A stretch of DNA of 64,000 nucleotides from a virus. Taxonomy: Duplodnaviria; Heunggongvirae; Uroviricota; Caudoviricetes. The notes beneath the pieces are model-generated. The model was not told the origin of the DNA and did not search any database. It saw only the letters and a program-made list of their open reading frames with translations. Location: IMG/VR virus record IMGVR_UViG_3300029969_000011; one strand, written 5' to 3'. Of the stretch, positions 7,500-62,821 are shown piece by piece (the stretch's first letter is position 1; each line of letters begins with the position of its first letter). The position numbers were made by a program, and so were the translations under genes.

Positions 7500-7578
7500 T
7501 TCTTTCTCATTTTCTATATATATTATATCATAATATAAAAAAAAAGTCAAAGGTTTTTACGCCTTTGACTTTCATAAA
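7500..7578 (-). promoter_or_regulatory. fused intrinsic terminator + σ70 promoter cassette
   Basis: Minus-strand reads GAAAGTCAAAGGcgtaaaaaCCTTTGAC-T9 hairpin, then TGATATAAT extended -10. Confidence 0.6.
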
Positions 7579-10684: not shown

Positions 10685-10749
10685 TTCTTTTTACCTCTTT
10701 CTCATTTTCTATATATATTATATCATAAAATATAAAAAATGTCAAATTT

Positions 10750-13516: not shown

Positions 13517-14359
13517 TCACTGTACATTCTCATTCCTCCAGATTTCGTCGCTTAACGCACGCTTAATGATGAGGAATTTCTGCTCGTCCATACTGTCAAG
13601 AACAGACTGGTCAAAGTTTAGACCCTCTTCTCTGTACTTAGCGAGCCAAGCATCTGCCTCTTCAACGATACGCTTACCAAGGTCCTTAGCCTGAGCCGCA
13701 GAGTAGTTGATTTGTCTATCCTTAACACCAAGGATTTCACCCCAGTATCTCTGCATATTCAAGTCTGAACCCTTAAATGGGTTAAGAATGTACGCGTAGT
13801 CTTCCTGCTTAAATTTTGAAAGCATAGCAAGCAATCTCATTTCGTGAGAGAGCTGCTTTGAAGCATAACCGTACTTCTCGACTTCCTCGACCTGAACTGG
13901 ATAAGGGTGGTCAAGAGCATTAAACTTTTCCTTAATCTGACCGACAATAGCCTTTAATGCAGACTCTTCATTTGCGTGTGCAATAGCGTCCCTATTAAGA
14001 ATAAACCAGAACATAGGGCTGTAATCTGGATTTACCCAGAACCAGTCTGAGTAAAGAAGCTCAACAAAGTTTGAAGAACCCTTCTTCCACTGGTCAACGA
14101 TAAGACGAATGTCCTTAACATCGACCTGACCGTTGAAAGGCATTTCTTCAACATGGCTTACAGGCTTTGAGTTGAATACAATATCCCTCAGTGAAGGAAC
14201 GACAACTGCCTTGTAATCGTAGTCACTCTTAGGTCGTCTCAGATTGTAGTTCTGAGCACCGTATAGAGCGATAAAGATTACATTAAAACCTCTTTTCTGA
14301 AGCTCCCTGACTGCAACGTGCATAAGCTCCTCTTCTGGCATTATCACTTTCTCGTCCAT
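13517..14359 (-). CDS. Pol-beta-superfamily nucleotidyltransferase (NTP_transf_2-like)
   Basis: YGAQNYNLRRPKSDYDYKAVV matches the hG[GS]x9-13Dh[DE]h nucleotidyltransferase signature. Confidence 0.4.
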   Translation of the reverse strand: MDEKVIMPEEELMHVAVRELQKRGFNVIFIALYGAQNYNLRRPKSDYDYKAVVVPSLRDIVFNSKPVSHVEEMPFNGQVDVKDIRLIVDQWKKGSSNFVELLYSDWFWVNPDYSPMFWFILNRDAIAHANEESALKAIVGQIKEKFNALDHPYPVQVEEVEKYGYASKQLSHEMRLLAMLSKFKQEDYAYILNPFKGSDLNMQRYWGEILGVKDRQINYSAAQAKDLGKRIVEEADAWLAKYREEGLNFDQSVLDSMDEQKFLIIKRALSDEIWRNENVQ

Positions 14360-14423: not shown

Positions 14424-14906
14424 TTAACTGTATCTGTAAGCTACAAAGATAACGTTATTCTCCTTCTCGACTTCTTCCAGTGTTTTCTTCATCACTGACC
14501 AGTCGCCGCCACCAAGACCGCAACCAAAAAGATAAGGAATAGCTATCGGCATCTGAGCGTAATCAGCAGGAATACATTCAAGTTCTCTGTAGCCGAGTAT
14601 CATATCAGTAAAACCGTCCTTTACTGCCTGATAATCTGTATAGCATTTATCTCTGCCATAGTCATCTTGACCAAAGATATTCCATATTTCGTGTCCATCT
14701 GCGGTCCAAGCACAACCTGTACCTAATGGAGACTTGTGATTGATAGCCCAGTATTCATCAATGAACTCCTTATAGACATCAAAGACTTCGGGATAGCGGT
14801 CTTTAATTGTCCTTGCTAAGCCGCCGCCCATAACTCCTCGACAGTTTACCTGATGAGCTATAATGTGTACGTCTGTATTTAAAACATCACCGTGGGTAAT
14901 TATCAT
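14424..14906 (-). CDS. macrodomain protein (ADP-ribose binding/hydrolase)
   Basis: GDVLNTDVHIIAHQVNCRGVMGGGLARTI aligns to the macrodomain GDI..vDvIVNAAN..l.GGGGV..AI motif; later GCGLGGGDW; start ATG 14906 with GGAGGAAG RBS. Confidence 0.6.
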   Translation of the reverse strand: MIITHGDVLNTDVHIIAHQVNCRGVMGGGLARTIKDRYPEVFDVYKEFIDEYWAINHKSPLGTGCAWTADGHEIWNIFGQDDYGRDKCYTDYQAVKDGFTDMILGYRELECIPADYAQMPIAIPYLFGCGLGGGDWSVMKKTLEEVEKENNVIFVAYRYS

Positions 14907-15202
14907 TCGTCTTCCTCCTTTATTCCATAATCGTCCCATTCCGCATCATCGGGAATCCAGGTCCAGCTATCTTCAAGGGCAGTTCGATAAGATGTAACAA
15001 CTACTCTGTGCTGCTTATATGCAACCGCATTTATATCAAAAGGATGGTCTAATATCCACTTGTCGATATAATCACCGAAGTCTTCTTCCTCAGATAGCTC
15101 ATAAAGATTTATAGGGCTTATAGGAGTATCCCTATCTTCAGGCTTTGCAAAGAACCATACCATTAATGTTCTCAATCGGTCAACCTCCAATTTATGTATC
15201 AT
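14903..15202 (-). CDS. hypothetical acidic protein
   Basis: 99-aa ORF. Confidence 0.4.
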   Translation of the reverse strand: MIHKLEVDRLRTLMVWFFAKPEDRDTPISPINLYELSEEEDFGDYIDKWILDHPFDINAVAYKQHRVVVTSYRTALEDSWTWIPDDAEWDDYGIKEEDE

Positions 15203-15393
15203 TAGTCCTCCTTAAGTGTCTGCTTGACATCATCAACTGTAAACTTTATACCCATGCCAGTGCTTTTGAGGAAATCTGTTGCCTTCTTTGTATCCTCTTC
15301 AGACTCAATATCTTCATCAAAATAAATGATAAGATACCAGAGCATAAAGATTACAAGTGCCGCCGTAAATAAAATTGCTATCATAATCTTCAC
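15202..15393 (-). CDS. small membrane protein
   Basis: 63 aa; TM segment IMIAILFTAALVIFMLWYLIIYF. Confidence 0.4.
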   Translation of the reverse strand: MKIMIAILFTAALVIFMLWYLIIYFDEDIESEEDTKKATDFLKSTGMGIKFTVDDVKQTLKED

Positions 15394-15463
15394 TCCTTTT
15401 CACTTTCTATAAATATTATATCATATATAATAAAAAAAGTCAAAGCTTTTATAGCTTTGACTC

Positions 15464-15730
15464 TTAGAAAATTTTGTACGGCGGCACTATAAGGTCGCAT
15501 CTACCCTCTCCGGACCAGTAAAATCTAATCCACGGTTTGGGTTTACGCCATTCGCCGCCCCAGCCTTCGCTGATTTTTATTTGCCTTAGTTTAAGTTCGT
15601 CCTTAATTTCAGAAGATAATGGTGGGATATATGCGTTAAAATATATTGTTACGCCACTATACCCATTACAACTTGCCTTATCAATCCAATATGCAAGATA
15701 CTGGTATTGAATATGGTTAATGAGCCCCAT
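15464..15730 (-). CDS. hypothetical protein
   Basis: 88 aa; GGAGGAATTG RBS. Confidence 0.4.
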   Translation of the reverse strand: MGLINHIQYQYLAYWIDKASCNGYSGVTIYFNAYIPPLSSEIKDELKLRQIKISEGWGGEWRKPKPWIRFYWSGEGRCDLIVPPYKIF

Positions 15731-15779
15731 TACAATTCCTCCATATAAAAAAAATAGAGCAGACTAACGTCTACTCTTT

Positions 15780-16346
15780 TAAAACGGTAGTTTTTAAGAA
15801 CACGATTGCCAGTCAATAGCCTTGACTGTTGGCTTAAACTGTAAAGTATAGCGCAATGCTTCCTTAACTGTTTTACTATCATTTGATTGTTCAAAAATAG
15901 TTGCTGATGCAATCGTAATATAAGAACTCGACTTCCTGCTGGGTCCACCAGACTTTTCCTTCCATTACCCTGAAGGGGGATAGGTTCTTATACCTATAAG
16001 CAAGTCGTCATGGTGACTAACCAGTGCCATACCATTTCAGATATGGGAATTTTACTATGACGTTTCCGACGCATCGGATTCGCCGTCACCCTGTCCGAAG
16101 ACCATAGGTGACTTCCTGTTATCTAAATTCATATCAAATCTATTATAGAAGATTGCTGATAGAAGTCGAAACCATTTTTTATTTTAACGAGGGCGCGGCA
16201 CCACGTCCTCATCTTGCTCAGTGAGCTTTCTTTATTTATAGGACGTTGCTCTACGTCCATTCTCTCGTAAGTCAATACGAAGACTATTGCCCTCGTACTG
16301 TTGTATTTATAAGTGGGATTTTACTCCCACCCATACAACATTTTCA
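15780..16346 (-). ncRNA. candidate structured non-coding RNA (possible Y-RNA-like partner of the TROVE protein)
   Basis: About 560 nt with no credible ORF (15730..15948 judged spurious), locally GC-richer with many short inverted repeats; ends in a hairpin + T-run terminator at about 15745-15780; directly downstream of the Ro60-like gene. Confidence 0.3.
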
Positions 16347-17828
16347 TTACTTCCAAGAATATACATCCTTAGAAAGTATCTTGACCATAGCCTCATAAGC
16401 ATTGCACTCGATGAGTTCTCTAAGGTCATTGAATGGACCTACACCAGAACCGCTGCAGTAACTGATGTTATCGTAGATAGTACCGATGTAGTTGTCCTGA
16501 CGTGCCTCAACATTCCAGCTTACGACCTTAGTCTCAGGGAGACCAGCCTCGCGAAGCTTCTTGTTCCACTTACCGACAATGGAGTCAGCAGTGTCTGGAC
16601 GTACGTCGTAGTCGAACTGACCGTCTGATATAACTACAAGAGCCTTTGGAACCTCGCGGGTTCTTACAGCAGTCTTATAGATAAGCTCGAAAGCCTTATC
16701 AAGGTTAGTGTTGTAACCCATGTCAGTTGACATTACCTTTCTAAGACACTCCTCAAGTCCCCAGCTATCCTCGAGGGATATGAAGTGAGGATTGTTAGTG
16801 AATGTCATATAAAGGTTGTGGTATGCACCCTTATTACGCTGAGCGAAGTAAGTTGCAAGACCAACAGAAGTTGCCATAGGCTGACCTAACATGGAGCCAG
16901 ATACATCTGCCATTACGACAACATCGTACTCTCCGCTAACGTAGTTAGGAAGAGCCTTCCACTGAGCTTCGTCTACAGGGTCAAGATGGTAACGAGAGCT
17001 ACCATACATATACTTGTACACGATGTCGTATGGGTAAAGAGTAGAAGCATTTACCTTAGCCTCGCCCTTTTCAAGGGAAGCCTTGTAAGCTGCAAATCTC
17101 TCCTGACAACGCTTGTTGTAAGTCTTGATATATCTGCTCATTGCAACAGATGGAACAGACTGGAAGTCTATCTCATCCCACTTACCAGCAGACATCTTTG
17201 TCTCGACGACGCCGATGTGTGCACGAAGCTTTGCAAGAGTCTTACGATATGTACGCTCGGTAAGACCGAGGTAACGACAAGCTCTACGACCAAGCTTACG
17301 AGTCTCCTGAGAAGAAGTATTGATAGATGGCATCCACTTAGCAAGGATGGAGATAGGCTGGTTCTTAGCCATACCCTCTGCATCAGCACGAAGCTGCTTG
17401 GAGATAAACTCCCATACCTTTGCCTCAATTACTGGATACTTTCCGTTAAGGAAGATGAAAAGGTCATCCCATCTACCTGTATCAACAATGGTCTGAAGAT
17501 TGCGGACAATCTTCTGAGGGTCGATACGACCGAGTTCTGCAAGCAGAATACGACCGATACGTCTCTCACCAAGACCACAGTCTCTGATGTTACGAGCGTA
17601 AAGGATAAGGTTATCTGCAAGAGTAGGGTTCTCCTGTCTTGCTGCCTTCCAATCGCTGATTATAGCGGAAGCATCTCTCTTTCTCATACCACCTATCTTT
17701 GCATAGATGTCAAGAAGAGCGCCGCCGTTTGTTGAACTATATGCGAGTCCACCGTTTTCGGTAAGTGTCTGATTAGCCATTGCCTTAGCTGCGTTTACGA
17801 AATTACTCATTACACATCTCTCCTTCAA
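16347..17828 (-). CDS. Ro60-like protein (TROVE-like helical N-terminal region + vWA domain)
   Basis: 493 aa; C-terminal vWA MIDAS VVVMADVSGSM (DxSxS); N-terminal ~300 aa helical region consistent with a TROVE module. Confidence 0.5.
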   Translation of the reverse strand: MKERCVMSNFVNAAKAMANQTLTENGGLAYSSTNGGALLDIYAKIGGMRKRDASAIISDWKAARQENPTLADNLILYARNIRDCGLGERRIGRILLAELGRIDPQKIVRNLQTIVDTGRWDDLFIFLNGKYPVIEAKVWEFISKQLRADAEGMAKNQPISILAKWMPSINTSSQETRKLGRRACRYLGLTERTYRKTLAKLRAHIGVVETKMSAGKWDEIDFQSVPSVAMSRYIKTYNKRCQERFAAYKASLEKGEAKVNASTLYPYDIVYKYMYGSSRYHLDPVDEAQWKALPNYVSGEYDVVVMADVSGSMLGQPMATSVGLATYFAQRNKGAYHNLYMTFTNNPHFISLEDSWGLEECLRKVMSTDMGYNTNLDKAFELIYKTAVRTREVPKALVVISDGQFDYDVRPDTADSIVGKWNKKLREAGLPETKVVSWNVEARQDNYIGTIYDNISYCSGSGVGPFNDLRELIECNAYEAMVKILSKDVYSWK

Positions 17829-17900
17829 GATAATTATTTTTGTTTGCTGTTTTTATCTTACTTATATATTATACTATAAAATATAATTTTTGTCAAATAT

Positions 17901-18455
17901 TTAATTGCACCTGTCTTCGTAAAAGGTTGCTACCCTACGAAAAATAGAGTCTGGCGCCGCCACAAATTCCTTCTGCCACTCTCTTTTGAAAGTTTTGAAG
18001 TATTCATCGACTTCCATATCGCCGAAAACATAAACTCTTATATTATTTCGTCTTGAGAAAACTTGTCTATGATAGACTATCTCCTTAAAGACTTCTAAGT
18101 CTCGCTTATCCTTAATCGAAATCGTAAGTCCATCAATGCCCCAGAGGTTCTTTTCTCTTTTATAAAGATACTCATATAACTCATAAGCATTGGTATAAAC
18201 ATACACCTTTTTGATATTAGGATAAGTTCCTTTTAAAAAGGAAGCTGTCATACAAGGGTCTGCATATGCAAATGGTTCGCCGCCCGTCAAGAAAATGTTT
18301 TCAGCTTCTTCAAGCTCTTCATTCGTAACGACGGGAATTTCATTTACATTATACTGCTTATTGCAACAAAGCGGGCAATTTCTATCACAACGATTTGTAA
18401 TCATTATGTGAATATTACGCTTCGTTATATCTGTCTTTTCATTTAATTGAGCCAT
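17901..18455 (-). CDS. radical SAM activase, NrdG-like (anaerobic RNR activating protein) or QueE-like
   Basis: 184 aa; CDRNCPLCCN = CxxxCxxC followed by CN as in NrdG (CPGCYN); GGEP motif. Confidence 0.5.
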   Translation of the reverse strand: MAQLNEKTDITKRNIHIMITNRCDRNCPLCCNKQYNVNEIPVVTNEELEEAENIFLTGGEPFAYADPCMTASFLKGTYPNIKKVYVYTNAYELYEYLYKREKNLWGIDGLTISIKDKRDLEVFKEIVYHRQVFSRRNNIRVYVFGDMEVDEYFKTFKREWQKEFVAAPDSIFRRVATFYEDRCN

Positions 18456-18695
18456 TTAAACTCGTCCTTTCCATTTGATTTTCTATAAATATTATACTAT
18501 ATTTTATAAAAAAAGTCAAATTTTTGAGGGAAAAATAAGGGCAACGTCGCAACGCTACCCTTACTCAGCTTTCGCTGATGGTATCAATTTAAACACGATA
18601 GGTTTGTGGCGGACCGCCGCCTGTATAAACGGGGGAGTCGAACCCCACGTAACCAATTTCTGAGGGTTTACATTTGGTTTGCTGAACTATCGTTA

Positions 18696-18787
18696 TGGCG
18701 ACGAAGTGAGGTGTCGAGCCCCATACCGCTCATCACGGTACCAACTGCTTTCAAGGCAGTGCTCAAGGCCGCTTGAGATACTCCGCC
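18696..18787 (-). tRNA. tRNA-Ser (anticodon TGA), class II
   Basis: CCA+G73; T-arm; long variable arm (taccg/cggta); anticodon loop reads tttcaag on plus strand (codon TCA); acceptor pairs with two G-U. Confidence 0.5.
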
Positions 18788-18999
18788 ATTATCAAGATAC
18801 GTTTTTTTCTCGTGCCTCTGCCAATTGGGCTACTCCCCGATATGCTGCCCGAGACAGGAATCGAACCGTTACCCTCCGCCTTCTTCAGGCGGCGTGCACA
18901 CCTATGCACTACAAGGGCAGTCTGGTCGGGGAGGATGGGATTCGAACCCACACTCATCGTGCTCCTAACGCATTAATTGAGTAGCTGACGTATCTTTAT

Positions 19000-19075
19000 T
19001 GGTGCCGAGGGGGAGAGTCGAACTCCCTACGCCAAGCTCTTCAGGCTTGCGCTCTACCAGTTGAGCTACCTCGGC
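19000..19075 (-). tRNA. tRNA-Phe (GAA)
   Basis: Perfect cloverleaf: acceptor gccgagg/cctcggc, T-arm gggag-agtcgaa-ctccc, anticodon loop tcttcag (codon TTC), CCA encoded. Confidence 0.75.
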
Positions 19076-19208
19076 ATTATCAAGACAGTTATACTTATAA
19101 ACTCTACCCGTTGAGCTACGCGACGCGAACGCCACGGTGGGATTCGAACCCACATCCCCCTTTGTGCAAAAAAGAAAAAGTTTTAAGTGTTTTGCTGAAC
19201 TGCCTTAT

Positions 19209-19285
19209 TGGTCGGGGCGGTGGGATTCGAACCCACAGAATCGTGATTTTGAGTCACGCACGTTTACCAGTTACGTCACGCCCCG
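19209..19285 (-). tRNA. tRNA, anticodon CAA (Leu-type anticodon) with class I (short variable arm) body
   Basis: Perfect acceptor cggggcg/cgccccg, T-arm, D-arm acgt-ttaccagtt-acgt; anticodon loop ttttgag (codon TTG); 5-nt variable loop. Confidence 0.55.
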
Positions 19286-19412
19286 ATATAAAATGCAAAA
19301 TATGAAGAGGATACCACACCCTGCAGAGGCCCATATTTATTTATATCCCGCACCATAAGCTTCTTCGCGCTTCAATCCGTCGACTGTCCTCATGGCCATC
19401 CGTGCGGTTTTC

Positions 19413-19488
19413 TGGGTGGAAAGATGAGATTCGAACTCACACCTTCATGGGCCACAACCATGCGCTCTACCATTAAGCTACTCACCAC
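19413..19488 (-). tRNA. tRNA-His (GTG)
   Basis: Anticodon loop gccacaa (codon CAC); extra 5' G-1 and C73 discriminator + CCA characteristic of tRNA-His. Confidence 0.7.
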
Positions 19489-19595
19489 ATCAATTCCGAC
19501 TTTAACCCAAGTCGGCAGGGTTAAATAAAACCAAATCTGCCTCCACACAGTGGAGTTAGCTGTAGACAATAGCACTGAACATAACTATTCCTACT

Positions 19596-19671
19596 TGGTC
19601 TCGGTTATAGGACTCGAACCTATGACTTTCTCCTTGTAAGGGAGACACTCTCGCCGCTGAGTTAAACCGAG
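19596..19671 (-). tRNA. tRNA-Val (TAC)
   Basis: Perfect acceptor ctcggtt/aaccgag, T-arm atagg-actcgaa-cctat, anticodon loop ttgtaag (codon GTA). Confidence 0.7.
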
Positions 19672-19698
19672 ATTATCAAGACTCTCTATACCTTGCGG

Positions 19699-19772
19699 TT
19701 CCGGAAGGGGGATTCGAACCCCCATATGTACGATTTTAGGTCGTATGACTTAGCCACTTTGTCTATTCTGGA
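19699..19772 (-). tRNA. tRNA-like, anticodon region TAA with irregular loop (C33?)
   Basis: T-arm ggggg-attcgaa-ccccc, acceptor tccggaa/ttctgga; anticodon stem tacga/tcgta with loop ttttagg. Confidence 0.35.
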
Positions 19773-19920
19773 AAGGAATATTGCTGAAGAGTCTTTATTT
19801 GGTTCGGGTATGCTTATCGGAGTCAAGTACTCGCAGTTCCTCTTTCGAGGTATTTTCTTCGGAGTAAAGACCTTAAGGTTCGCGTAACCTCTCGTGCCCT
19901 AACCCATATCCGAAACCCGA

Positions 19921-19997
19921 TGGTGCCGTTAGAGGGACTCGAACCCACACTAACCAGTTCCTAAGACTGGCGCCTCTGCCAATTGGGCTATAACGGC
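19921..19997 (-). tRNA. tRNA, anticodon TAG (Leu-type anticodon) with class I, Gln-like body
   Basis: Perfect acceptor gccgtta/taacggc + CCA, anticodon stem ccagt/actgg loop tcctaag (codon CTA), 5-nt variable loop, 3-bp D-stem. Confidence 0.5.
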
Positions 19998-20061
19998 ATT
20001 GTTAAACAGTTCGAGTTACGGTCAAACTGAAGGTAAGCACCGATTAAGCAGCCAGATACTC

Positions 20062-20292
20062 CTATTCAGAATAATCAAGCTTTTCAATTCTTTTCATATC
20101 GGAATATGTAACCTGCTTCCAACCACTCTTAGGGTGGTTAAAGGCACACATCCAGCAGGAACAATGAATTTTACCTTTGGCTAACTTTCCGTCGCAATCA
20201 CAAAACCAATGATGAGTTTCATCAATGATATGTCTTTTGCGAGCTATGTGTTGTCTTCTCTGATAACGATAGTATGCTCTATCTCTTTCCAT
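20062..20292 (-). CDS. Arg-rich zinc-finger protein inside the tRNA array
   Basis: 76 aa; basic N-terminus, HxxxC...CxC...CxxC cluster. Confidence 0.4.
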   Translation of the reverse strand: MERDRAYYRYQRRQHIARKRHIIDETHHWFCDCDGKLAKGKIHCSCWMCAFNHPKSGWKQVTYSDMKRIEKLDYSE

Positions 20293-20432
20293 TGTGCCGC
20301 CCTCCGAAAAATTATAATAACGAATATAGGCAACCCACTACTTACTTTCCTTACCAGCGTAAATTAAGCACCTTCGCTACGTATTGCTACTACCTCAGTA
20401 TTTAATTTACTATGCCCTTCCCTCGATATTCG

Positions 20433-20975
20433 TTACTTAGTAATTCTGTTTGCGATACCAGAAGCAGCGTAGCTGTCTGGCTTGATAGCAACCTCGAAGC
20501 CGCAAGTCTTAATCCAAGAGGTAATCTCAGTAATAAGCTGATTTGTCTTACCTGCGTGACCAATGTCAGCGTGGACAGCGAAAGTAAATCTTCCGTCATT
20601 AGACATTTGCTCAAGGTCAATATCATAGTCGATAAGAGCATAAGCAAGAGCATCTACGAAACCTGTTGCGTTCTCAATAGAACGAGAAGTCTCTTCCTGT
20701 ATCTTAGTCTTAAGAACTCTTATCTTTGGTATATCTTGCTTGCGATAGAAGAAAATGCCGCCATCACCGATACGGTGAACAGCAATTACTTCCACCATTC
20801 TTGTGCACTTGTGGTTCTGGCTATCTGTACCCACAGTTATTTCGTATGAGGCGTTAGGTGCCTTTGCGATGTAGTCGGCTACAATAGAGCCTATCTGTGA
20901 ATAACGAACCTTCTCACCATTACCACGAGTAAATATCTTCTCGGTAATCACGGTTAATCTCTCCTTTATATTCAA
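20433..20975 (-). CDS. YkuK/DUF458-like RNase H-fold protein
   Basis: 180 aa; VGTDSQ and AVHADIGH motifs resemble the GTDSQ/HADSN signatures of the YkuK family. Confidence 0.4.
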   Translation of the reverse strand: MNIKERLTVITEKIFTRGNGEKVRYSQIGSIVADYIAKAPNASYEITVGTDSQNHKCTRMVEVIAVHRIGDGGIFFYRKQDIPKIRVLKTKIQEETSRSIENATGFVDALAYALIDYDIDLEQMSNDGRFTFAVHADIGHAGKTNQLITEITSWIKTCGFEVAIKPDSYAASGIANRITK

Positions 20976-21107
20976 ATATTCAAGACAGTTATGTTAGCTA
21001 CCTTTTGATTAAAATTCAAATGCTTTTAAAGAATTGCTGGACTGTCTTAGTGGTGATAATACGTGCCGCGGCACCACAGACCGCTATATGTGGTCGCACG
21101 TATTCTC

Positions 21108-21194
21108 TGGTCGGCTCGGTGGGACTCGAACCCACACGCCCTTGCGGGCACCAGCTCCTTAGGCTGGCGCGTCTGCCAATTCCGCCACGAGCCG
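21108..21194 (-). tRNA. tRNA-Leu (anticodon AAG), class II
   Basis: 87 nt; perfect acceptor cggctcg/cgagccg + CCA; long variable arm gccc-ttg-cgggc; anticodon loop tccttag (codon CTT). Confidence 0.55.
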
Positions 21195-21262
21195 ATTTAT
21201 CAAGACTCATCTTGTGTTTTTATATGCCCAAAAAACTTTCAGAGTTGCTGCTGAGTCTTATC

Positions 21263-21339
21263 TGGTCGGAGATGCGGGACTCGAACCCACGGCCTCTCGC
21301 TCCCAAGGCGAGCGCTCTACCAAACTGAGCTAATCCCCG
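21263..21339 (-). tRNA. tRNA-Pro (TGG)
   Basis: Anticodon stem ctcgc/gcgag, loop tcccaag (codon CCA); D-arm gctc-taccaaact-gagc; CCA encoded. Confidence 0.65.
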
Positions 21340-21409
21340 ATTAATTGGCGGCTTCAGGGACGCTACAAGATAACCAACCGCCAGAGTTATCACGCACTTA
21401 ATGTCCCAA

Positions 21410-21486
21410 TGGTCGGCGAGATGGGATTCGAACCCACACTGAATGGATTTTAAGTCCATTGCCTCTGCCTGTTGCGCTACTCGCCG
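21410..21486 (-). tRNA. tRNA, anticodon TAA (Leu-type anticodon) with class I body
   Basis: Perfect acceptor cggcgag/ctcgccg + CCA; anticodon stem atgga/tccat loop ttttaag (codon TTA); 5-nt variable loop. Confidence 0.5.
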
Positions 21487-21606
21487 ATAAGCCTATTAAA
21501 TAGGCTACAAGATATAACCCCTTTTACCGCGGGGCAGTCTCCCCAATATAATTGGTTGGGGAGATAGGAATTGAACCTACAAAAGTGAGTTGCTGATATA
21601 TCTTAG

Positions 21607-21683
21607 TGGTCACGCCAGCGAGGCTCGAACTCGCATTTTAGCCTTGAAAGAGCTACTTCCTACACCTGTTAGAAGATGGCGCG
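21607..21683 (-). tRNA. tRNA-Glu (TTC)
   Basis: T-arm gcgag-gctcgaa-ctcgc, anticodon loop ttgaaag (codon GAA), CCA encoded. Confidence 0.6.
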
Positions 21684-21835
21684 ATTCATCAAGATGTGCT
21701 TTTACCTCTCATGAGGATTTGAACCTTACCGTCCCCTTTTTGGGGCTGTGCTACCAGATTACACCATAACGCCGAGAGGATTTAAAATGGCGGCGTTAAA
21801 AACTTTAAAGAAAAAGTTGCTGACACATCTTTATT

Positions 21836-21909
21836 TGGTTGCGCAGACAGGACTCGAACCTATATCAACGGATAATGACTCCGTTATGCTACCTTTGCAC
21901 TACCGCGCG
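21836..21909 (-). tRNA. initiator tRNA-fMet (CAT)
   Basis: Anticodon loop taatgac (anticodon CAT); 5' CGCGCGG / 3' CTGCGCAACCA with C1·A72 mismatch, as in bacterial initiator tRNA. Confidence 0.6.
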
Positions 21910-22760
21910 TTCTCTTTATTTTCTATAATTATTATAGCATAAATTATAAAAAATGTCAAATTTTTGATTTCTAAGTCATTTCGTAAGCACTCTCACCGCG
22001 TGAAGGTAGACTTAATTGAGAGTATTTCTTCAACAATCTTGGGTGCCGCCACATCTCCTGCACACAGGAGACAGGGTACTCGAACCCCTCCATCGCCAGT
22101 TGCTGAAAGGAATTTCAACCTAATCTCATTAGTTATAAAGCCACTGAGCTGTAGCTATGCGAATAATTTGCCGCAATCAACGGGCGACTATTCTAATCGC
22201 CGTCATAACCAACACAAGTTATGAACCATTGTAATGTCGTCAGGTTCCCACACTTACGCAGTAAACGCGCCGCTTAACCACTTGGTTTAGGTATGTTCAT
22301 AACCAAGAAATTTTCCCTTTTACATCGTCAGCAGTAGATGTCGTAATTTTATCGGTACTTCCCCGAATGGACATTGCGTGCCTATCGTACTCACGGTAAT
22401 GTACGTAACCGCTGCCGTGCCAGCCAATACACGGATTTATACTGCCATCACACAGTCGGGCAGGTCTGTGATGGGTCTCTGCCCAATTTGGTTTTTGTGG
22501 TTTTAAACAGTCCAATGAGTAAACCTCAACTCAACTGTAGAGAATATTTGGTGGTTCGCTCTCTCTCAGCGAAGGTGTAAAGGGAGTTTAAACCACTTCC
22601 TCGTGGGGTTTTAACGTCTTTTCCTTGACAAGTCTCGCCGCAACCAGTACCATTTAAGGTACGCCAATCACTACGGGTTGCACATCCTTACTTTACCTGC
22701 CCAACAGGTCGGCGGTTGGACCCGCCAGTGTCCCTTTTATTCTCTTTAAGTAATTGGCAA

Positions 22761-22835
22761 TGGTGTGGGATAGGAGAATCGAACTCCCACCGCCTGTTTG
22801 GAAGACAGGAATACTGACCGTTATACGAATCCCAC
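22761..22835 (-). tRNA. tRNA-Gly (TCC)
   Basis: Perfect acceptor gtgggat/atcccac + CCA; anticodon stem cctgt/acagg, loop ttggaag (codon GGA). Confidence 0.65.
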
Positions 22836-23045
22836 ATTAGTTCTTATTTTTAAGTATAATTTATTATAACATATTCTAAGAAAAAAGTCAAATTTTTAAT
22901 AGTGATTGTCTTTGTAGGGGTCTGTCTTCTTCTTATCATGGGTTGCGGCGATGATGTCTGGCATAACCTCTATGAGCTTCCAAAGAAGTACGGTTACGCA
23001 AACAACTATTAGGTACTGCATCAGACAGACCTCCTTTCAAGACAT

Positions 23046-23120
23046 TGGTTTCTCCGCTTGGATTCGAACCAAGGAATGGCAGTTTTAGAGACTGCTGTCT
23101 TAAGCCTCTTGACGACGGAG
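23046..23120 (-). tRNA. suppressor tRNA, anticodon CTA (reads TAG); tRNA-Gln-like body
   Basis: Perfect acceptor ttctccg/cggagaa + CCA; T-arm cttgg-attcgaa-ccaag; anticodon stem gcagt/actgc, loop tttagag = C-U-CUA-A-A; 3-bp D-stem, variable loop CATTC as in E. coli tRNA-Gln. Confidence 0.7.
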
Positions 23121-23125
23121 AATTA

Positions 23126-23201
23126 TGGTTGCCGCTCTGGGAATCGAACCCAGTAAGACGGAGTTAGAGTCCGTTGTCCTCGCCAACTAAACGAAGCGGC
23201 A
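23126..23201 (-). tRNA. second suppressor tRNA, anticodon CTA (reads TAG)
   Basis: Perfect acceptor tgccgct/agcggca + CCA; T-arm ctggg-aatcgaa-cccag; anticodon stem acgga/tccgt, loop gttagag (anticodon CUA); 3-bp D-stem. Confidence 0.65.
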
Positions 23202-23342
23202 AAATTCTCCAAGACGCCTTTACATTTACCTTTTAAACATTTTAAGTGTTCTATTGTAAGAAATGATTGCAGGATGCGTCTTTCATTCTTATAAAATAAT
23301 TATAACATATTTTATAAAAATTGTCAAATTTTTGAGTGCTTA

Positions 23343-23606
23343 TTAGTCTACAGCAGTTGTAGTAGTTGTCTCTGTTGTAGTCTCTTCTGCCTCAGTTTCT
23401 GTGGTAGTAGTTGTTTCTTCGGTAGCCTCAGTTGTCTCCTCTGCTACTGTTGTAGCTTCAGTTGTTTCAGCTTCTGTTGTTTCAACTTCTGTTGTAACTA
23501 CTGTTGTGGTTTCACTGTTGCTTCCGCTATCCTTTGATGTATCGCAAGAAACAAAAGTTACAGCCATAGCGCCTGCCATAAGACAAGCTAAAATAGCCTT
23601 CTTCAT
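23343..23606 (-). CDS. small secreted lipoprotein, Thr/Glu-rich
   Basis: 87 aa; signal peptide + TFVSC lipobox-like; (ETT)n low-complexity tail; located inside tRNA array. Confidence 0.45.
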   Translation of the reverse strand: MKKAILACLMAGAMAVTFVSCDTSKDSGSNSETTTVVTTEVETTEAETTEATTVAEETTEATEETTTTTETEAEETTTETTTTTAVD

Positions 23607-23949
23607 TGTGTTTCACCTCTTTGCTTTTTAAATAAGAACCCTTGCTTGTATATCGAAACCTCGTATTATATCCACAGTCACATCGTGATTTACTCCCACA
23701 CAAGAGGGCTACCATGGAGAAGGGGCACGCCCCGAGATGGGCGGCAATAATCATAGAACGCTATACGAAAAGCATAACGTACTAAGGAACTCTTTCCACA
23801 CGTGGTGGATGAGCTATCGTATTTCTACGACCCCGCACAGCGGGTAGAAGTCATAATGACCTCTTAACAGTAATTTTGATTGAGCCGCGTTTCCTCTTTT
23901 AAGTCTGACTAACTGCGGTAAAAAATCCAGACTTCAAAATTACTTTTAA

Positions 23950-24043
23950 GAAATCATTATGGCGCGGTCGGGGAGACTCGAACTCCCACACCGATTGCTC
24001 GATTACTCATAGTTTAGCAAACTACTGCCTTACCAAATTAGGC
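23950..24043 (-). tRNA. tRNA-Ser (GCT), class II
   Basis: CCA + G73; perfect acceptor gcggtcg/cgaccgc; long variable region; anticodon loop ttagcaa (codon AGC). Confidence 0.5.
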
Positions 24044-24188
24044 TTACGACCGCATTATCAAGATACGTTTTTTCGATATACGTTGTTCTACCAGTTGAAC
24101 TACTCCGCCATATTGGCGACGGAGGCAGGACTTGAACCTACACCTACGGCGTGATAGGCAATCTATTGCTTGCTGACGTATCTTAGTT

Positions 24189-24266
24189 TGGTGTGCCTGA
24201 TGGGACTCGAACCCATGACCCCCTGATTAAAAGTCAGGTGTTCTATGCCAACTGAACTACAGGCAC
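24189..24266 (-). tRNA. tRNA-Lys (TTT)
   Basis: Perfect cloverleaf; acceptor gtgcctg/caggcac; anticodon loop ttaaaag (codon AAA). Confidence 0.75.
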
Positions 24267-24366
24267 ATTAACATCCGCTGAGCATCTTATTGGAACGCTT
24301 TCACCATGCGAGACCTCTATTGTTTATTTGCTGGCAGAATTTGAACCATTAACCATAGCGAATATT

Positions 24367-24442
24367 TGGTGGGACGCCTGAGATTCGAACTCAGATAAGC
24401 TCGGTTATGAGCCGAGTGCACTAACCATTGTACTAACGTCCC
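24367..24442 (-). tRNA. elongator tRNA-Met (CAT) or tRNA-Ile2 (CAT, lysidine)
   Basis: T-arm ctgag-attcgaa-ctcag; anticodon stem ctcgg/ccgag, loop ttatgag (anticodon CAT). Confidence 0.6.
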
Positions 24443-24490
24443 ATTAAAGAAAGGAAAGGGGCATACTTTCAAGATGGCTATGCCAGACCA

Positions 24491-24564
24491 CTAAGTTATT
24501 GGCTTCGGCAAAGGGAGTCGAACCCCTATCAACAGAGCCAAAATCTGTTGTCCTACCATTAGAC
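24491..24564 (-). tRNA. tRNA-Gln (TTG)
   Basis: G73 + CCA; anticodon stem acaga/tctgt, loop gccaaaa (codon CAA); 3-bp D-stem GTC/GAC. Confidence 0.65.
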
Positions 24565-24601
24565 GATACCGAAATCTATGGAGTCATAAAGACTCCAAAT
24601 A

Positions 24602-24961
24602 TTACTTTTTGTTAGTTTTGTCTTTGCCTTTATCTTTATCTTTATCTTTATCCTTGTCTTTTCCTTCGGTATCTTCTTTGGTTTCTTCTTTTGCCATTGT
24701 AGAAGTCCAGCCAACCATCTGTTCAGCTAACCAGCCTGGGAGTCCAAAATATACTTCTCCCAAAACTTCATTTATTTCTGTGAGGTAAACCCAGCCTTCG
24801 CCAGGGATGTTGGCTCTACATTTTGCTTTACCCTTACCTTTGTCAACATATTCTGACTTCAGATATTCGATAAGCTCATCTACTGTCATACCATAAGTAG
24901 CTTCTTTTCTTACGTCTTTTTCAGACTTTTTAGTTACTTTGGTTATCTTTTCGACTTTCAT
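24602..24961 (-). CDS. hypothetical protein with C-terminal (DK)n repeat
   Basis: 119 aa; the DNA microsatellite ctttat(c) encodes DKDKDKDKDK. Confidence 0.4.
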   Translation of the reverse strand: MKVEKITKVTKKSEKDVRKEATYGMTVDELIEYLKSEYVDKGKGKAKCRANIPGEGWVYLTEINEVLGEVYFGLPGWLAEQMVGWTSTMAKEETKEDTEGKDKDKDKDKDKGKDKTNKK

Positions 24962-25006
24962 TTTCTCACCTCACTATAAATATTATATCATATTTTATTT
25001 AAAAAG

Positions 25007-25471
25007 TCAAATTTTTGAAAACTCTTGAATATCATAATCGTGGTTTCTAAACCACTTATGTATCATAAGTCTCTCAGAACAAAGCTGTTCAGGTTTCTCA
25101 TAAACTATGAGAGCGGCAACAGGTTCTTCTTCAAAATGTAAGAAGTCTTGAACCCGATGTCCAATGCTTTCAAACCTCTCCATTATATTATCATAATTGA
25201 GGTATTTGAGCTGTAAATAATAATCGTGCAGAAAGTTACAAGTGTTTGGATTCTGCTTACATGACTTGCCGCCACACTCAGCGATGTTCTGAAAATCTGG
25301 TACAAATGGCTCTGCTCGGCACCCAATAAGGACACCATTCTTATCAACATAAGTTGACTTCATATCGCCGTTAATATGATACCAAGCAGGGTCAGATATT
25401 GCTGTACTTAATGGAATGATATTAGGAGTAAAGAATCTTATTTGGTAAAAATAAGATGTTACTATTTTCAT
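25007..25471 (-). CDS. hypothetical protein
   Basis: 154-aa ORF. Confidence 0.4.
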   Translation of the reverse strand: MKIVTSYFYQIRFFTPNIIPLSTAISDPAWYHINGDMKSTYVDKNGVLIGCRAEPFVPDFQNIAECGGKSCKQNPNTCNFLHDYYLQLKYLNYDNIMERFESIGHRVQDFLHFEEEPVAALIVYEKPEQLCSERLMIHKWFRNHDYDIQEFSKI

Positions 25472-25602
25472 TCCTCGCCGCGACCTTCACCTTCAAGGGA
25501 TACTATCTTCTCCCAACACTCAGGGCAAAGTGTAGCCTCTTCATCAACTGATTCAAAAGGCTTGCCGCACTCTTCACAGATTACTTCATATGTATCAGCC
25601 AT
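25469..25602 (-). CDS. small zinc-ribbon protein (44 aa)
   Basis: MADTYEVICEECGKPF...CPECW; GGAGCG RBS; below ORF-track cutoff. Confidence 0.35.
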
Positions 25603-25667
25603 TTAAAATCGCTCCTTTTTAATAATGTAATAATATTATATTATATTTTATTTAAAAAGTCAAATTT

Positions 25668-25970
25668 TTAATTGGTCTTTTCAGCGAAAGTCCAAGCCTT
25701 TCTTCCGTCAGCAAGAATATAAATTCCATTTATCTGGAACTTCTCAGGCTTCTCATAAACAATCTCAACCTTGTGCTTAACGCCGTCAAGTCTGTCCTGC
25801 TCAAGGCTTGTTCTGAACTCCTTACCGCTCATCTTAAAAATTTGATTGTCGGTAACTTTAAGTGATGTTACCCCATTCTCATCTTCAACTTTTTCGAGCA
25901 TTGTTACATTCATAAGAACCTTAGACTTTACTATATCCCAAGGCTGGAATCCTCTCTGTTTTAAATCCAT
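25668..25970 (-). CDS. hypothetical protein
   Basis: 100-aa ORF. Confidence 0.4.
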   Translation of the reverse strand: MDLKQRGFQPWDIVKSKVLMNVTMLEKVEDENGVTSLKVTDNQIFKMSGKEFRTSLEQDRLDGVKHKVEIVYEKPEKFQINGIYILADGRKAWTFAEKTN

Positions 25971-26407
25971 TACTTTTCCTCCTTAAAATCGTTCCTTAGT
26001 TTCATCAAGGTGTAACCAAGCTGATTACGACCTACGCCGCGGCAACTGGGACAAGTGCATATACCCCAGTATCTATCGTGCCAAGTTGTAGCTTCAACAA
26101 GAGTCTCATCACCAGTTTCAAGGAGAGCTTCCTTTAACTCTGGGTTTTGAGTAAACTTCTCATAAAGAACATCGTACATAACTTGGTCTTTAACCTGTTC
26201 CCAGTCAGGACGAAGGTTTGCACTTCTACCCATAGACTTAGCAAAAGAAGGTGGTCTGTCCGCATACTTCTCTGCATTTTCAGGCTCTTTCTGTGATTGA
26301 AATGCCGCCTCGGAGTTAGTAAAATGAATACCCTTATAAGTAAAAGAGGACGCATAAAAGTTACTTAAGAAACCATATTTGCCTATATTACCTGTAAAAT
26401 GTATCAT
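25970..26407 (-). CDS. NADAR-domain protein (YbiA/DUF1768-like)
   Basis: 145 aa; GKYGFLSNFY...EAAFQSQK...RPDWEQVKDQVMYDVLYEKFTQNPELKEALLETGDETLVEA...WG...GRNQLGYTLMKLR matches the NADAR consensus. Confidence 0.6.
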   Translation of the reverse strand: MIHFTGNIGKYGFLSNFYASSFTYKGIHFTNSEAAFQSQKEPENAEKYADRPPSFAKSMGRSANLRPDWEQVKDQVMYDVLYEKFTQNPELKEALLETGDETLVEATTWHDRYWGICTCPSCRGVGRNQLGYTLMKLRNDFKEEK

Positions 26408-26500
26408 ATATTTCCTCCCGTTTGATTTTCTATAAATATTATATAATAATATTTTTAAAAAGTCAAATTTTTAATCATAATATTCCGTTGCAAATTTATC

Positions 26501-27064
26501 CTATTCATTTTCCAGCCACTCTTTTGTCTGTGCTTTATGGATATAATCCAGCACTTCATTACAAATACGAGTGTATCCTTCTTCAGTACCGTCCATTATC
26601 CAGTAGTAAATATCGTGGCTTTCAAGGAATTTCTTTATTCTGACATCAATCTCTTTCGCTTCTTCCTCTGTCTGATTCCTGCCAACAGGATTGTAAGGCT
26701 TTTTTCGATTGATAAAAAAGTTAATGTTATCATAAGTATTAAACACATCCATTACTAAATGTTCGTAGTGCGGGCCCAAGACTGGGTTCTGATTATAAAA
26801 TACGCCGAGCGGCAATGGGCTATCTGTGATGATAACATCCACCTGGTCGCGGCACCTGTCCATTTTATAGGACTGTTTACCGAAAACATATTCCTGACAT
26901 CTTAATGCTGAATAGTTCTTCTCCCAAGTTTTATCCTTAGCAAACTCAGTTATCAACTCGCAATTAACACCTTTCATCTTTAATTGACTAAAAATAAAAG
27001 CTGCCGCCGTAGACTTTCCTGCACCGGGGCCTGCAAATAAGTTTATGACTATTGGCTTCTTCAT
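26501..27064 (-). CDS. P-loop NTPase / nucleotide kinase-like protein
   Basis: 187 aa; Walker A FAGPGAGKST. Confidence 0.5.
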   Translation of the reverse strand: MKKPIVINLFAGPGAGKSTAAAFIFSQLKMKGVNCELITEFAKDKTWEKNYSALRCQEYVFGKQSYKMDRCRDQVDVIITDSPLPLGVFYNQNPVLGPHYEHLVMDVFNTYDNINFFINRKKPYNPVGRNQTEEEAKEIDVRIKKFLESHDIYYWIMDGTEEGYTRICNEVLDYIHKAQTKEWLENE

Positions 27065-28681: not shown

Positions 28682-28683
28682 AT

Positions 28684-28908
28684 TTAGTCTCCTTTCCATT
28701 TTACAAATCCGCCAATGTTAATAATGAAATATGCTATATACATTAAAACCATTGGCAAATTAAATACTCCTACAATATTGACCGCTATCCATAGGAAGTT
28801 TCCTATTATCCAAGCTATCCAACCAATACGCTTTTTTAACATAATGAGGATATTTCCGCCGAGACTAAAGATAGCTCCAAGAATAGAAAGTATCAATATC
28901 AAATTCAT
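28684..28908 (-). CDS. small multi-TM membrane protein
   Basis: 74 aa, three hydrophobic segments. Confidence 0.4.
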   Translation of the reverse strand: MNLILILSILGAIFSLGGNILIMLKKRIGWIAWIIGNFLWIAVNIVGVFNLPMVLMYIAYFIINIGGFVKWKGD

Positions 28909-62790: not shown

Positions 62791-62821
62791 AGAATAAATT
62801 AGAAAAGGAGTGAGTGCAAGT

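What the first reader, a model, noticed from the sequence alone, without database searches (positions are those of the whole stretch)
14424..26407. Macrodomain + NADAR pair: candidate counter-defence against ADP-ribosylating (DarT-like) host systems
A macrodomain protein (14424-14906) and a NADAR/YbiA-family protein (25970-26407) are both encoded. Macrodomains (as in DarG) reverse thymidine ADP-ribosylation by DarT2. NADAR enzymes were shown to reverse guanine ADP-ribosylation by DarT1. Carrying both suggests a phage antitoxin-mimic strategy against DarTG-type abortive-infection systems or other ADP-ribosyltransferase defences.
Basis: partly seen in the sequence, partly recalled or inferred. 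Interest (0 to 1): 0.7.

Follow-up and report, generated by a model that had tools for sequence, protein, structure and literature searches.

The report
Phage macrodomain and NADAR de-ADP-ribosylases
This phage carries two separate early genes for enzymes that remove ADP-ribose from nucleic-acid bases, most likely to undo DarT-type host defence, a strategy already shown experimentally in phage T4 and others.

Summary

The two genes are not a linked module. They lie 11.5 kb apart with a tRNA array between them. Each has its own copy of a 16-member consensus early promoter. The macrodomain is conserved across the phage clade, while the NADAR is sporadic. T4 already carries a validated NADAR plus macrodomain combination, so this is a new member of known kinds. 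Rival roles in RNA repair or NAD/ADP-ribose metabolism are not excluded. Separately, the window shows TAG stop-codon recoding in its late genes.

The parts
14424..14906 (-). Stand-alone macrodomain protein (160 aa) of the ALC1-like (TARG1/DarG/SCO6735/Poa1p) class. Motifs: H18-Q-V-N21, G24-V-M-G-G-G-L-A31, F78-G-Q80, G128-C-G-L-G-G-G-D-W136.
14903..15202 (-). 99-aa acidic ORF with no family assignment. Its stop overlaps the macrodomain ATG (ATGA), so it is probably co-translated in the same small operon. It is conserved upstream of the macrodomain in close relatives only.
15202..15393 (-). 63-aa hydrophobic ORF, the first gene of the same small operon.
15404..15443 (-). Zero-mismatch copy of the extended early promoter TTGACT-N17-TATAATATTTATAGAAA, driving the 63aa-99aa-macrodomain operon. 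It is preceded by a hairpin whose 3' arm contains the -35 box.
25970..26407 (-). Stand-alone YbiA-type NADAR protein (145 aa). Catalytic or binding residues E33, K40, E105, D111 and W114 are present. It also has a CxCxxC insert (C117, C119, C122) together with His110.
26427..26466 (-). Zero-mismatch copy of the same extended early promoter. Its 3' end lies 20 nt upstream of the NADAR ATG, with a GGGAGG ribosome-binding site in between.

Best explanation
The window encodes two unlinked, stand-alone ADP-ribosyl glycohydrolases that the phage makes at the start of infection to strip ADP-ribose from nucleic-acid bases modified by host ADP-ribosyltransferase defences.

The macrodomain (14424-14906) is a Gln-type member of the ALC1-like class. 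By analogy with SCO6735 and T4 Tk.4/AdfM, Asn21 and Gln80 position the distal ribose and a water molecule cleaves the thymine (possibly uracil) N-glycosidic link made by DarT2-like enzymes.

The NADAR (25970-26407) is a YbiA-type enzyme. By analogy with AdfN-Bas32, YbiA and the oomycete NADAR, Glu33 and Glu105 hold the distal ribose and Lys40 the phosphate, and the enzyme removes ADP-ribose from guanine (possibly cytosine) as deposited by DarT1-like or pierisin-like enzymes. Together the two would cover T/U- and G/C-linked modification.

Shown here: the folds, motif conservation, homology to validated enzymes, separate consensus promoters and standard-code coding. Inferred: the substrates, early timing, and that the host carries such a defence.
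For: - NADAR family assignment: Pfam 1.3e-30; TIGR02464 above its cut-off; full-length alignment to YbiA 2b3w and to 8bau with SE..FQ..K and E....D..WG conserved.
- NADAR residues E33, K40, E105, D111 and W114 are invariant in 32 aligned sequences, including AdfN-Bas32. These are the residues mapped as ADPr-binding or catalytic in PMC11543638.
- The NADAR is 41% identical, E=2e-34, to bas32_0066, the AdfN-Bas32 protein that neutralises DarT1.
- Macrodomain motifs: HQVN in 117/120 homologs and [F]GQ in 118/120.
- The GQ motif aligns with BT1257 'IGQHG'. This corresponds to SCO6735 Gln85-x-Gly87, the structural equivalent of DarG K80 and TARG1 K84. The Q85A mutant is dead, and SCO6735 cleaves T-ADPr DNA and rescues cells from DarT.
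- hhalign places Q80 on Gln84 of T4 Tk.4/AdfM (97.9%). Loss of Tk.4 sensitises T4 to DarTG2. hhalign to PhiKZ AdfM gives 98.6%.
- T4 carries both AdfN and AdfM, and Bas62 carries both a NADAR and a GQ-type macrodomain.
- Both genes sit behind zero-mismatch copies of a 16-member sigma-70-type promoter (expected by chance 0.01). Both lie in the block without TAG recoding and end in TAA, which is consistent with early expression by host RNA polymerase.
Against: - No function test was possible.
- The host is unknown, so the presence of DarTG or similar systems is unverified.
- E. coli YbiA and T4 gp30.3 were active on G-ADPr in vitro but did not rescue DarT1 toxicity in one study. YbiA-type chemistry therefore does not guarantee counter-defence in vivo.
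- The macrodomain lacks the DarG/TARG1 lysine. It also lacks the SCO6735 Lys34 equivalent (Gly28 here).
- The macrodomain's conserved neighbours are RNA-repair-like genes. In relatives the NADAR sits next to NAD-salvage genes.
- The NADAR is not conserved across the clade (97% and 82%, then at most 57% identity), whereas the macrodomain is (94% down to 40% in a smooth series). The two are not co-inherited as a unit.
Confidence: 0.6

Rival explanations
1. RNA-repair housekeeping. The macrodomain acts like Poa1p and dephosphorylates or processes ADP-ribose-1''-phosphate or Appr>p released when a Tpt1/KptA-type enzyme removes 2'-phosphates during tRNA repair. The NADAR processes other ADP-ribose by-products.
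Against: No KptA/Tpt1, 2H phosphoesterase or sirtuin was found among the 50 window ORFs scanned against Pfam. None appears in the precomputed Pfam annotations of 10-kb flanks in five related lineages. From established knowledge, a PNK plus Rnl2-type ligase pathway leaves no 2'-phosphate, so it would generate no Appr>p. Poa1p has Gly where this family has the invariant Gln. The synteny may only reflect shared ancestry within one phage clade, because more distant homologs sit among nucleotide-metabolism genes instead.
Confidence: 0.14
2. NAD+/ADP-ribose metabolite control. One or both enzymes act on small NAD-derived molecules (immune signals such as cyclic ADPR isomers, or ADPr recycling for NAD+ reconstitution) to counter NAD-depleting or NAD-signalling defences, rather than on modified nucleic acids.
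For: In relatives the NADAR gene is flanked by isochorismatase (nicotinamidase-like) and AAA_28 genes (L006-L008). In L009 it directly abuts NAMPT and NAD synthase genes. In the window it follows the AAA_28 kinase. A 74-aa membrane ORF (28684-28908) matches the position, length and adjacency to the AAA_33 kinase gene of an ORF flagged as a weak NMN_transporter hit in relatives, though its homology was not checked. Iyer et al. [quoted passage not shown]
Against: The window has no NAMPT, NadE or nicotinamidase. The AAA_28 protein is a highly conserved core kinase of the clade, annotated inconsistently as adenylate, deoxynucleoside or nicotinamide-riboside kinase, with no PDB or NCBIfam match. 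Among the papers read here, every experimentally tested NADAR acted on base-linked ADPr in DNA or RNA, and none reports NADAR or ALC1-like macrodomain cleavage of cADPR-type signals.
Confidence: 0.12
3. RNA de-ADP-ribosylation. The enzymes remove base-linked ADP-ribose from tRNA or mRNA rather than from phage DNA, as part of the surrounding RNA-protection island.
For: TARG1-like macrodomains efficiently reverse U-ADPr on RNA. NADARs are the only hydrolases found to reverse G-ADPr on RNA, and YbiA-type NADARs also remove C-ADPr. The genomic setting lies among tRNA and RNA-repair genes.
Against: No phage example is known. The only evidence is contextual. Homologs validated in phages act in defence against DNA-modifying DarT1 and DarT2.
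Confidence: 0.1

Closest known systems
AdfN-Bas32 (bas32_0066, phage IrisVonRoten/Bas32), an orphan phage NADAR that is an anti-DarTG1 factor (PMC11825919)
   Same: Stand-alone phage NADAR of about 145-149 aa. It is 41% identical over the full length (E=2e-34). It has the same E/K/E/D/W residue set and is of the Glu (YbiA-like) rather than the His (T4) type.
   Different: Only 41% identity. The window protein has a CxCxxC insert plus His110 that AdfN-Bas32 lacks. It comes from an unrelated, uncultured, TAG-recoded phage. Its activity is untested.
T4 Tk.4/AdfM and PhiKZ gp104/AdfM, phage macrodomain anti-DarTG2 factors (bioRxiv 10.1101/2025.11.20.689424; PMC13309987)
   Same: Stand-alone phage macrodomains of about 155-162 aa, homologous by hhalign (97.9% and 98.6%), with a conserved Asn in the H/x-x-x-N motif. 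T4 Tk.4 has Gln at the position aligned with Q80. T4 also co-carries a NADAR (AdfN).
   Different: Identity is only 21-27%. PhiKZ AdfM is Lys-type (FPTK), unlike this protein. No nuclear-import context applies here.
SCO6735 (Streptomyces coelicolor) and BT1257, the Gln-type subclass of ALC1-like macrodomains (PMC9411070)
   Different: About 20% identity. The loop after GQ is 3 residues shorter than in BT1257. The SCO6735 Lys34 and Gly87 equivalents are Gly28 and Asp82 here. SCO6735 and BT1257 are cellular proteins, not phage proteins.
DarG (DarTG2 antitoxin) and DarG1 (the NADAR antitoxin of DarTG1)
   Same: They share the same two hydrolase superfamilies and the same predicted chemistry of reversing base ADP-ribosylation.
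   Different: No adjacent DarT gene. The macrodomain has no C-terminal DarT-binding domain and no catalytic Lys. The NADAR has Glu, not the Asp typical of DarT1-associated NADARs, and no N-terminal extension. NCBIfam DarG scores 55.8 bits against a cut-off of 250.
E. coli YbiA / TIGR02464 (riboflavin-intermediate N-glycosidase; G- and C-ADPr hydrolase in vitro)
   Same: It is the best solved-structure match by sequence (2e-18). The window protein scores above the TIGR02464 cut-off.
   Different: The context is a phage early gene rather than the LexA-controlled dinG-ybiB operon. YbiA did not rescue DarT1 toxicity in vivo.

Membership tests
Macrodomain superfamily | Three-layer alpha/beta/alpha macro fold | tested here: met
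Macrodomain superfamily | Pfam PF01661 gathering score | tested here: not met
   15.1 bits against a cut-off of 22, E=0.022, N-terminal 34 residues only. Many homologs do carry a precomputed PF01661 hit.
Macrodomain superfamily | ADP-ribose-binding loops (Asn-x6-Gly-Gly and a Gly-rich phosphate loop) | tested here: met
   N21, G27-G28-G29 and G128-C-G-L-G-G-G134 are invariant or nearly so in 45-120 homologs.
ALC1-like class, Gln-type (SCO6735/BT1257; T4 Tk.4) | Gln at the position of DarG K80 / TARG1 K84, held by the conserved Asn | tested here: met
   Q80 is invariant (118/120). It aligns with BT1257 GQHG and with T4 Tk.4 Gln84. The equivalence to K80/K84 is taken from PMC9411070. It was not checked on 3-D coordinates here.
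ALC1-like class, Gln-type (SCO6735/BT1257; T4 Tk.4) | Hydrolysis of thymidine-linked ADP-ribose on ssDNA | not testable with these tools
   Needs an enzyme assay.
DarG (DarTG2 antitoxin) | Catalytic lysine (K80 in T. aquaticus DarG) | tested here: not met
   FGQDD aligns with FPTKK/FPTKD; there is no Lys.
DarG (DarTG2 antitoxin) | C-terminal DarT-binding domain and an adjacent DarT gene | tested here: not met
   The protein is 160 aa with a single domain. The PADLOC DarG match covers profile positions 4-143 of 329 only. No ART was found in the scanned ORFs.
DarG (DarTG2 antitoxin) | NCBIfam NF048014 equivalog cut-off | tested here: not met
   55.8 bits against a cut-off of 250.
AdfM (phage anti-DarT factor, macrodomain) | Orphan phage-encoded macrodomain homologous to validated AdfM proteins | tested here: met
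   hhalign 98.6% to PhiKZ gp104 and 97.9% to T4 Tk.4. It is a stand-alone gene in a phage early region.
AdfM (phage anti-DarT factor, macrodomain) | Protects the phage from DarTG2 | not testable with these tools
   Needs plaque or toxicity-rescue assays.
NADAR superfamily (PF08719) | Pfam gathering score and conserved Glu/Lys/(Glu|Asp|His)/Asp/Trp residues | tested here: met
   107.3 bits against a cut-off of 35.1. E33, K40, E105, D111 and W114 are invariant. The residue roles come from PMC11543638.
YbiA subfamily of NADAR | Glu at the position of oomycete NADAR E125, and the TIGR02464 cut-off | tested here: met
   LVEAT aligns with YbiA LVEHT and 8bau LYEAS. The score is 92.4 bits against a cut-off of 73.7.
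DarG1 (DarT1-associated NADAR antitoxin) | Asp at that position, an N-terminal extension and an adjacent DarT1 gene | tested here: not met
   The residue is Glu105. The protein starts 8 residues before the conserved core. The neighbours are an AAA_28 kinase and a 100-aa ORF.
AdfN (phage anti-DarT factor, NADAR) | Orphan phage NADAR homologous to a validated AdfN | tested here: met
   41% identity, E=2e-34, to bas32_0066. Only a distant, sub-threshold similarity to T4 gp30.3 (PF08010, 28.4 bits against a cut-off of 36).
AdfN (phage anti-DarT factor, NADAR) | Removes guanine-linked ADP-ribose and protects from DarTG1 | not testable with these tools
   Needs assays.

The most novel reading that the evidence does not exclude
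The HQVN/FGQ macrodomain family, found in about 1,700 sequenced phages and biochemically uncharacterised apart from its distant Gln-type relative T4 Tk.4 (21% identity), may act in this clade as part of an RNA-protection island. That island comprises a Ro-like vWA protein, an RlaP-like nucleotidyltransferase, an RNA ligase, a Pnkp-like kinase and 19 tRNAs. In this reading the macrodomain, together with the YbiA-type NADAR, removes base-linked ADP-ribose (U-, G- or C-ADPr) from tRNA or mRNA. That would be a phage 'RNA de-ADP-ribosylation repair' activity, for which I know of no example.
Probability: 0.1. Interest if true: 0.6.

Novelty: new member of a known kind. Interest (0 to 1): 0.27.

Why it matters
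If the prediction holds, the AdfN/AdfM counter-defence strategy extends beyond model coliphages and Pseudomonas jumbo phages. It would then also operate in an uncultured, TAG-recoded gut or rumen phage clade with assembled contigs of up to about 176-193 kb, which may approximate its genome size. That implies nucleic-acid ADP-ribosylation is a common defence in those hosts too. It would also add a YbiA-type NADAR with a putative His/Cys3 metal site, and a Gln-type macrodomain, to the set of candidate broad-spectrum de-ADP-ribosylases. The concept itself is already established, so the gain is incremental.

Tried and rejected
- Megablast of 13-28 kb against 50,697 phage records found only tRNA-sized matches, so no cultured close relative exists.
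- Pfam alone failed to call the macrodomain.
- I first concluded that the macrodomain lacked a catalytic residue, because pairwise, PDB and hhalign alignments put Asp81 opposite the DarG/AdfM lysine. I revised this after the BT1257/SCO6735 and T4 Tk.4 comparisons showed the invariant Gln80 is the functional equivalent.
- I looked for KptA/Tpt1, 2H, sirtuin or ART genes to support an RNA-repair or self-modification role. None was found in 50 scanned ORFs or in the flanks of related loci.
- I tested whether the two genes co-localise in relatives. No fetched locus has both within +/-10 kb. This is uninformative, because they are 11.5 kb apart in the window.
- A viral-contig scan with the intervening RNaseH-like protein, meant to bridge the two genes, found nothing.
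- The adjacent AAA_28 kinase gave no PDB or NCBIfam match. Its homologs carry inconsistent names, so a NadR-like role could not be established.
- ICP1 AdfB was checked and is not a macrodomain.


Full report
**Observation**

Both ORFs exist on the minus strand at the stated coordinates. The macrodomain ORF is best read from the ATG at 14906, giving 160 aa. That ATG overlaps the stop of the upstream 99-aa ORF as ATGA, and all homologs are 155-163 aa and begin MII... The NADAR ORF is 25970-26407, 145 aa.

**NADAR**

- The assignment is unambiguous. Pfam PF08719 gives E=1.3e-30. NCBIfam TIGR02464 (YbiA-type domain) gives 92.4 bits against a cut-off of 73.7.
- There are full-length alignments to E. 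coli YbiA (2b3w, 2e-18) and the oomycete NADAR 8bau (1e-11).
- Schuller et al. map several ADP-ribose-binding or catalytic residues in the oomycete enzyme: E43, K50, E125, D130 and W133 (PMC11543638). These correspond here to E33, K40, E105, D111 and W114. All five are invariant in a 32-sequence alignment.
- The Glu at position 105 places the protein in the YbiA subfamily. It is neither the Asp type associated with DarT1 nor the His type of T4.
- T5-like coliphages carry a homolog. The HdH2 gene is 98% identical at the DNA level to bas32_0066 of phage IrisVonRoten, which is BASEL phage Bas32.
- The window protein is 41% identical to bas32_0066 (E=2e-34). AdfN-Bas32 neutralises DarT1 and restores plaquing of three phages on DarTG1 hosts, and it is specific for guanine-linked ADPr (PMC11825919).

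**Macrodomain**

- Pfam Macro is below threshold. The other evidence is strong:
  - PHROG 335 gives 1.7e-34.
  - The PADLOC DarG model gives 4e-16 across the whole domain.
  - A 45-sequence family profile hits BT1257 (2e-16), Mtb DarG (2e-16), Poa1p (1e-14), SCO6735 (1e-12) and TARG1 (3e-8).
- The family conserves HQVN (117/120), [F]GQ (118/120) and GCGLGGGDW.
- Pairwise, PDB and hhalign alignments showed that the DarG/AdfM 'FPTK' lysine is absent.
- The profile alignment places FGQ on BT1257 'IGQHG'. Published work on SCO6735, the 54%-identical relative of BT1257, shows three things (PMC9411070):
  - Its Gln85-x-Gly87 occupies the structural position of DarG K80 and TARG1 K84.
  - The Q85A and N27S mutants lose activity.
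  - SCO6735 hydrolyses T-ADPr ssDNA faster than DarG and rescues cells from DarT.
- hhalign also puts Q80 opposite Gln84 of T4 Tk.4 (97.9%). A 2025 preprint names Tk.4 AdfM because its loss sensitises T4 to DarTG2.
- PhiKZ gp104, the other published AdfM, is homologous (98.6%) but is Lys-type (PMC13309987).

**Genomic setting**

- The window is a phage. Genes at 1-57 kb run on the minus strand. They include ThyX, a UvrD-like helicase, a DNA ligase and GIY-YIG endonucleases, plus 19 tRNAs at 18.8-24.6 kb.
- The two genes are 11.5 kb apart with the tRNA array between them.
- Each gene sits behind a zero-mismatch copy of an extended sigma-70-type promoter, TTGACW-N17-TATAATATTTATAGAAA. The window has 16 copies against 0.01 expected by chance. 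Fifteen are on the minus strand between 1 and 38.9 kb.
- The macrodomain is the third gene of a small operon (63 aa, 99 aa, macrodomain). The NADAR is the first gene after its promoter.
- Both genes end in TAA and contain no in-frame TAG. The 41.8-56.4 kb block only makes sense if TAG is read as sense. I infer that both genes are early genes expressed by host RNA polymerase, as expected for counter-defence enzymes.

**Conservation and context in relatives**

- Macrodomain homologs fall in a smooth series (94, 93, 85, 68 ... 40% identity).
- In relatives down to 50% identity the macrodomain keeps the same neighbourhood. It consists of a DUF458 RNaseH-like gene, a DUF2828/vWA (Ro-like) gene, the macrodomain, a 280-aa nucleotidyltransferase, an AlaX-like gene, an RNA ligase and a Band_7 gene.
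- At 42% identity (L012/L013), and in Bas62, the macrodomain lies among nucleotide-metabolism genes instead.
- The NADAR has homologs at 97% and 82% identity and then drops to at most 57%, so it is a sporadic accessory gene.
- In its closest relatives the NADAR follows isochorismatase and AAA_28 genes. In a 56%-identical relative it abuts NAMPT and NAD synthase genes.
- Homologs of both families are common in cultured phages: 1,730 records for the macrodomain and 859 for the NADAR, out of 50,697. Some phages carry both, including PBS1/AR9, Bas62 and T4.
- Iyer et al. 2022 had already reported that Macro and NADAR domains co-occur in DNA viruses more often than chance.

**Interpretation**

The best-supported reading is that these are two independent early de-ADP-ribosylases. 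One is a Gln-type ALC1-like macrodomain acting on T- (and perhaps U-) linked ADP-ribose. The other is a YbiA-type NADAR acting on G- (and perhaps C-) linked ADP-ribose. They would be analogous to AdfM and AdfN and would neutralise DarT2- and DarT1-like defences. I put this at about 0.6.

Three rival readings remain, all resting mainly on gene context:
- **Clean-up of ADP-ribose-phosphate by-products of tRNA repair.** This is weakened because no KptA/Tpt1, 2H or sirtuin was found in the window or in related flanks. From established knowledge, a Pnkp plus Rnl2-type pathway also makes no 2'-phosphate.
- **Action on small NAD-derived signals or NAD+ recycling.** The window lacks NAD-salvage enzymes, and the adjacent AAA_28 kinase could not be assigned.
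- **Repair of base-ADP-ribosylated RNA.** TARG1-like macrodomains and NADARs do this in vitro, and the genes sit in an RNA-repair-like island. No phage precedent exists.

**Novelty**

Published work covers AdfN (2025) and AdfM (PhiKZ 2026; T4 preprint 2025). T4 uses both enzymes against DarTG1 and DarTG2 respectively. This locus is a new, divergent member of those kinds in an uncultured TAG-recoded phage.

Three features are mildly new:
- the Gln-type active site in a very large phage macrodomain family;
- a CxCxxC insert in the NADAR that covaries with His110 (46 of 47 sequences with the insert have His, against 9 of 72 without it), which suggests a metal site;
- the shared early-promoter regulon.

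Noticed in passing
window 23046-23122 and 23126-23201 (tRNAs); 41807-56419 (- strand): There are two tandem tRNAs with a CUA anticodon (amber suppressors). The late-gene block is only readable if TAG is treated as sense: ORFs of 1183, 711, 1128, 430, 227 and 880 aa contain 13, 9, 18, 5, 4 and 4 in-frame TAGs, and all end in TAA. The 430-aa ORF (51684-52976) matches Pfam Amidase_2 (8e-13) across two of its TAG codons. This indicates stop-codon recoding of late, structural and lysis genes. The 1-41 kb block, including the macrodomain and NADAR, uses the standard code.
   Followed up: partly
window: 16 sites, e.g. 1-40, 2524-2563, 7511-7550, 10706-10745, 15404-15443, 18480-18519, 21920-21959, 26427-26466, 62756-62795: An extended consensus promoter, TTGACW-N17-(TG)TATAATATTTATAGAAA, occurs 16 times (0.01 expected by chance). 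Fifteen copies are on the - strand within 1-38.9 kb, and none is in the TAG-recoded block. Several are preceded by a hairpin whose 3' arm contains the -35 box (15465-15435, 28979-28952), forming terminator-promoter cassettes.
   Followed up: partly
window 18844-24573 (- strand): An array of 19 tRNA genes (Leu x6, Met x2, Phe, His, Val, Pro, Glu, Gly, Ser, Lys, Gln, plus the two suppressors) is interspersed with small ORFs and a DUF458 RNaseH-like gene (20433-20975).
   Followed up: no
window 9752-10684, 13517-14359, 16347-17828, 17901-18455, 27776-28699: A set of RNA-repair-like genes surrounds the finding: an Rnl2/DRB0094-type RNA ligase, a nucleotidyltransferase weakly similar to RlaP (E=0.003; PHROG 388 at 1e-11), a DUF2828/DUF7788 vWA protein (PHROG 'RNA-binding protein', Ro-like), a small radical-SAM protein, and a Pnkp-like kinase fused to an HD domain. 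Most of this set is syntenic in related contigs.
   Followed up: partly
window 25970-26407, residues H110, C117, C119, C122: The NADAR carries a CxCxxC insert after the D..WG motif. Among 120 homologs the insert covaries with a His just before the catalytic Asp (46 of 47 sequences with the insert have His; 9 of 72 without it do). This suggests a His/Cys3 metal site that is absent from YbiA, the oomycete NADAR and AdfN-Bas32.
   Followed up: partly
window 14903-15202 (- strand): A 99-aa ORF with a strongly acidic C-terminus is translationally coupled (ATGA) to the macrodomain gene. It has no Pfam, PHROG or PADLOC match. It is present upstream of the macrodomain in close relatives (85-113 aa) but is replaced by a metallophosphatase in a 50%-identical lineage. 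Whether it cooperates with the macrodomain, for example as a DarT-binding or DNA-mimic partner, is unknown.
   Followed up: no
window 26501-27064 and 28684-28908 (- strand): An AAA_28 kinase lies directly upstream of the NADAR. It is a highly conserved core gene of this clade (thousands of homologs; contigs of 176-193 kb), and sources name it variously as adenylate, deoxynucleoside or nicotinamide-riboside kinase. A 74-aa two-TM ORF overlaps the start of the kinase-HD gene. It matches, in length and position, an ORF flagged as a weak PnuC/NMN_transporter hit in related contigs, though its homology to that ORF was not tested.
   Followed up: partly
window 7579-9156 and 39451-40446 (- strand): A 525-aa SPFH/Band_7-flotillin protein and a GH113 glycoside hydrolase are encoded in the early block. 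Both are unusual phage cargo. The Band_7 gene is syntenic in relatives.
   Followed up: no
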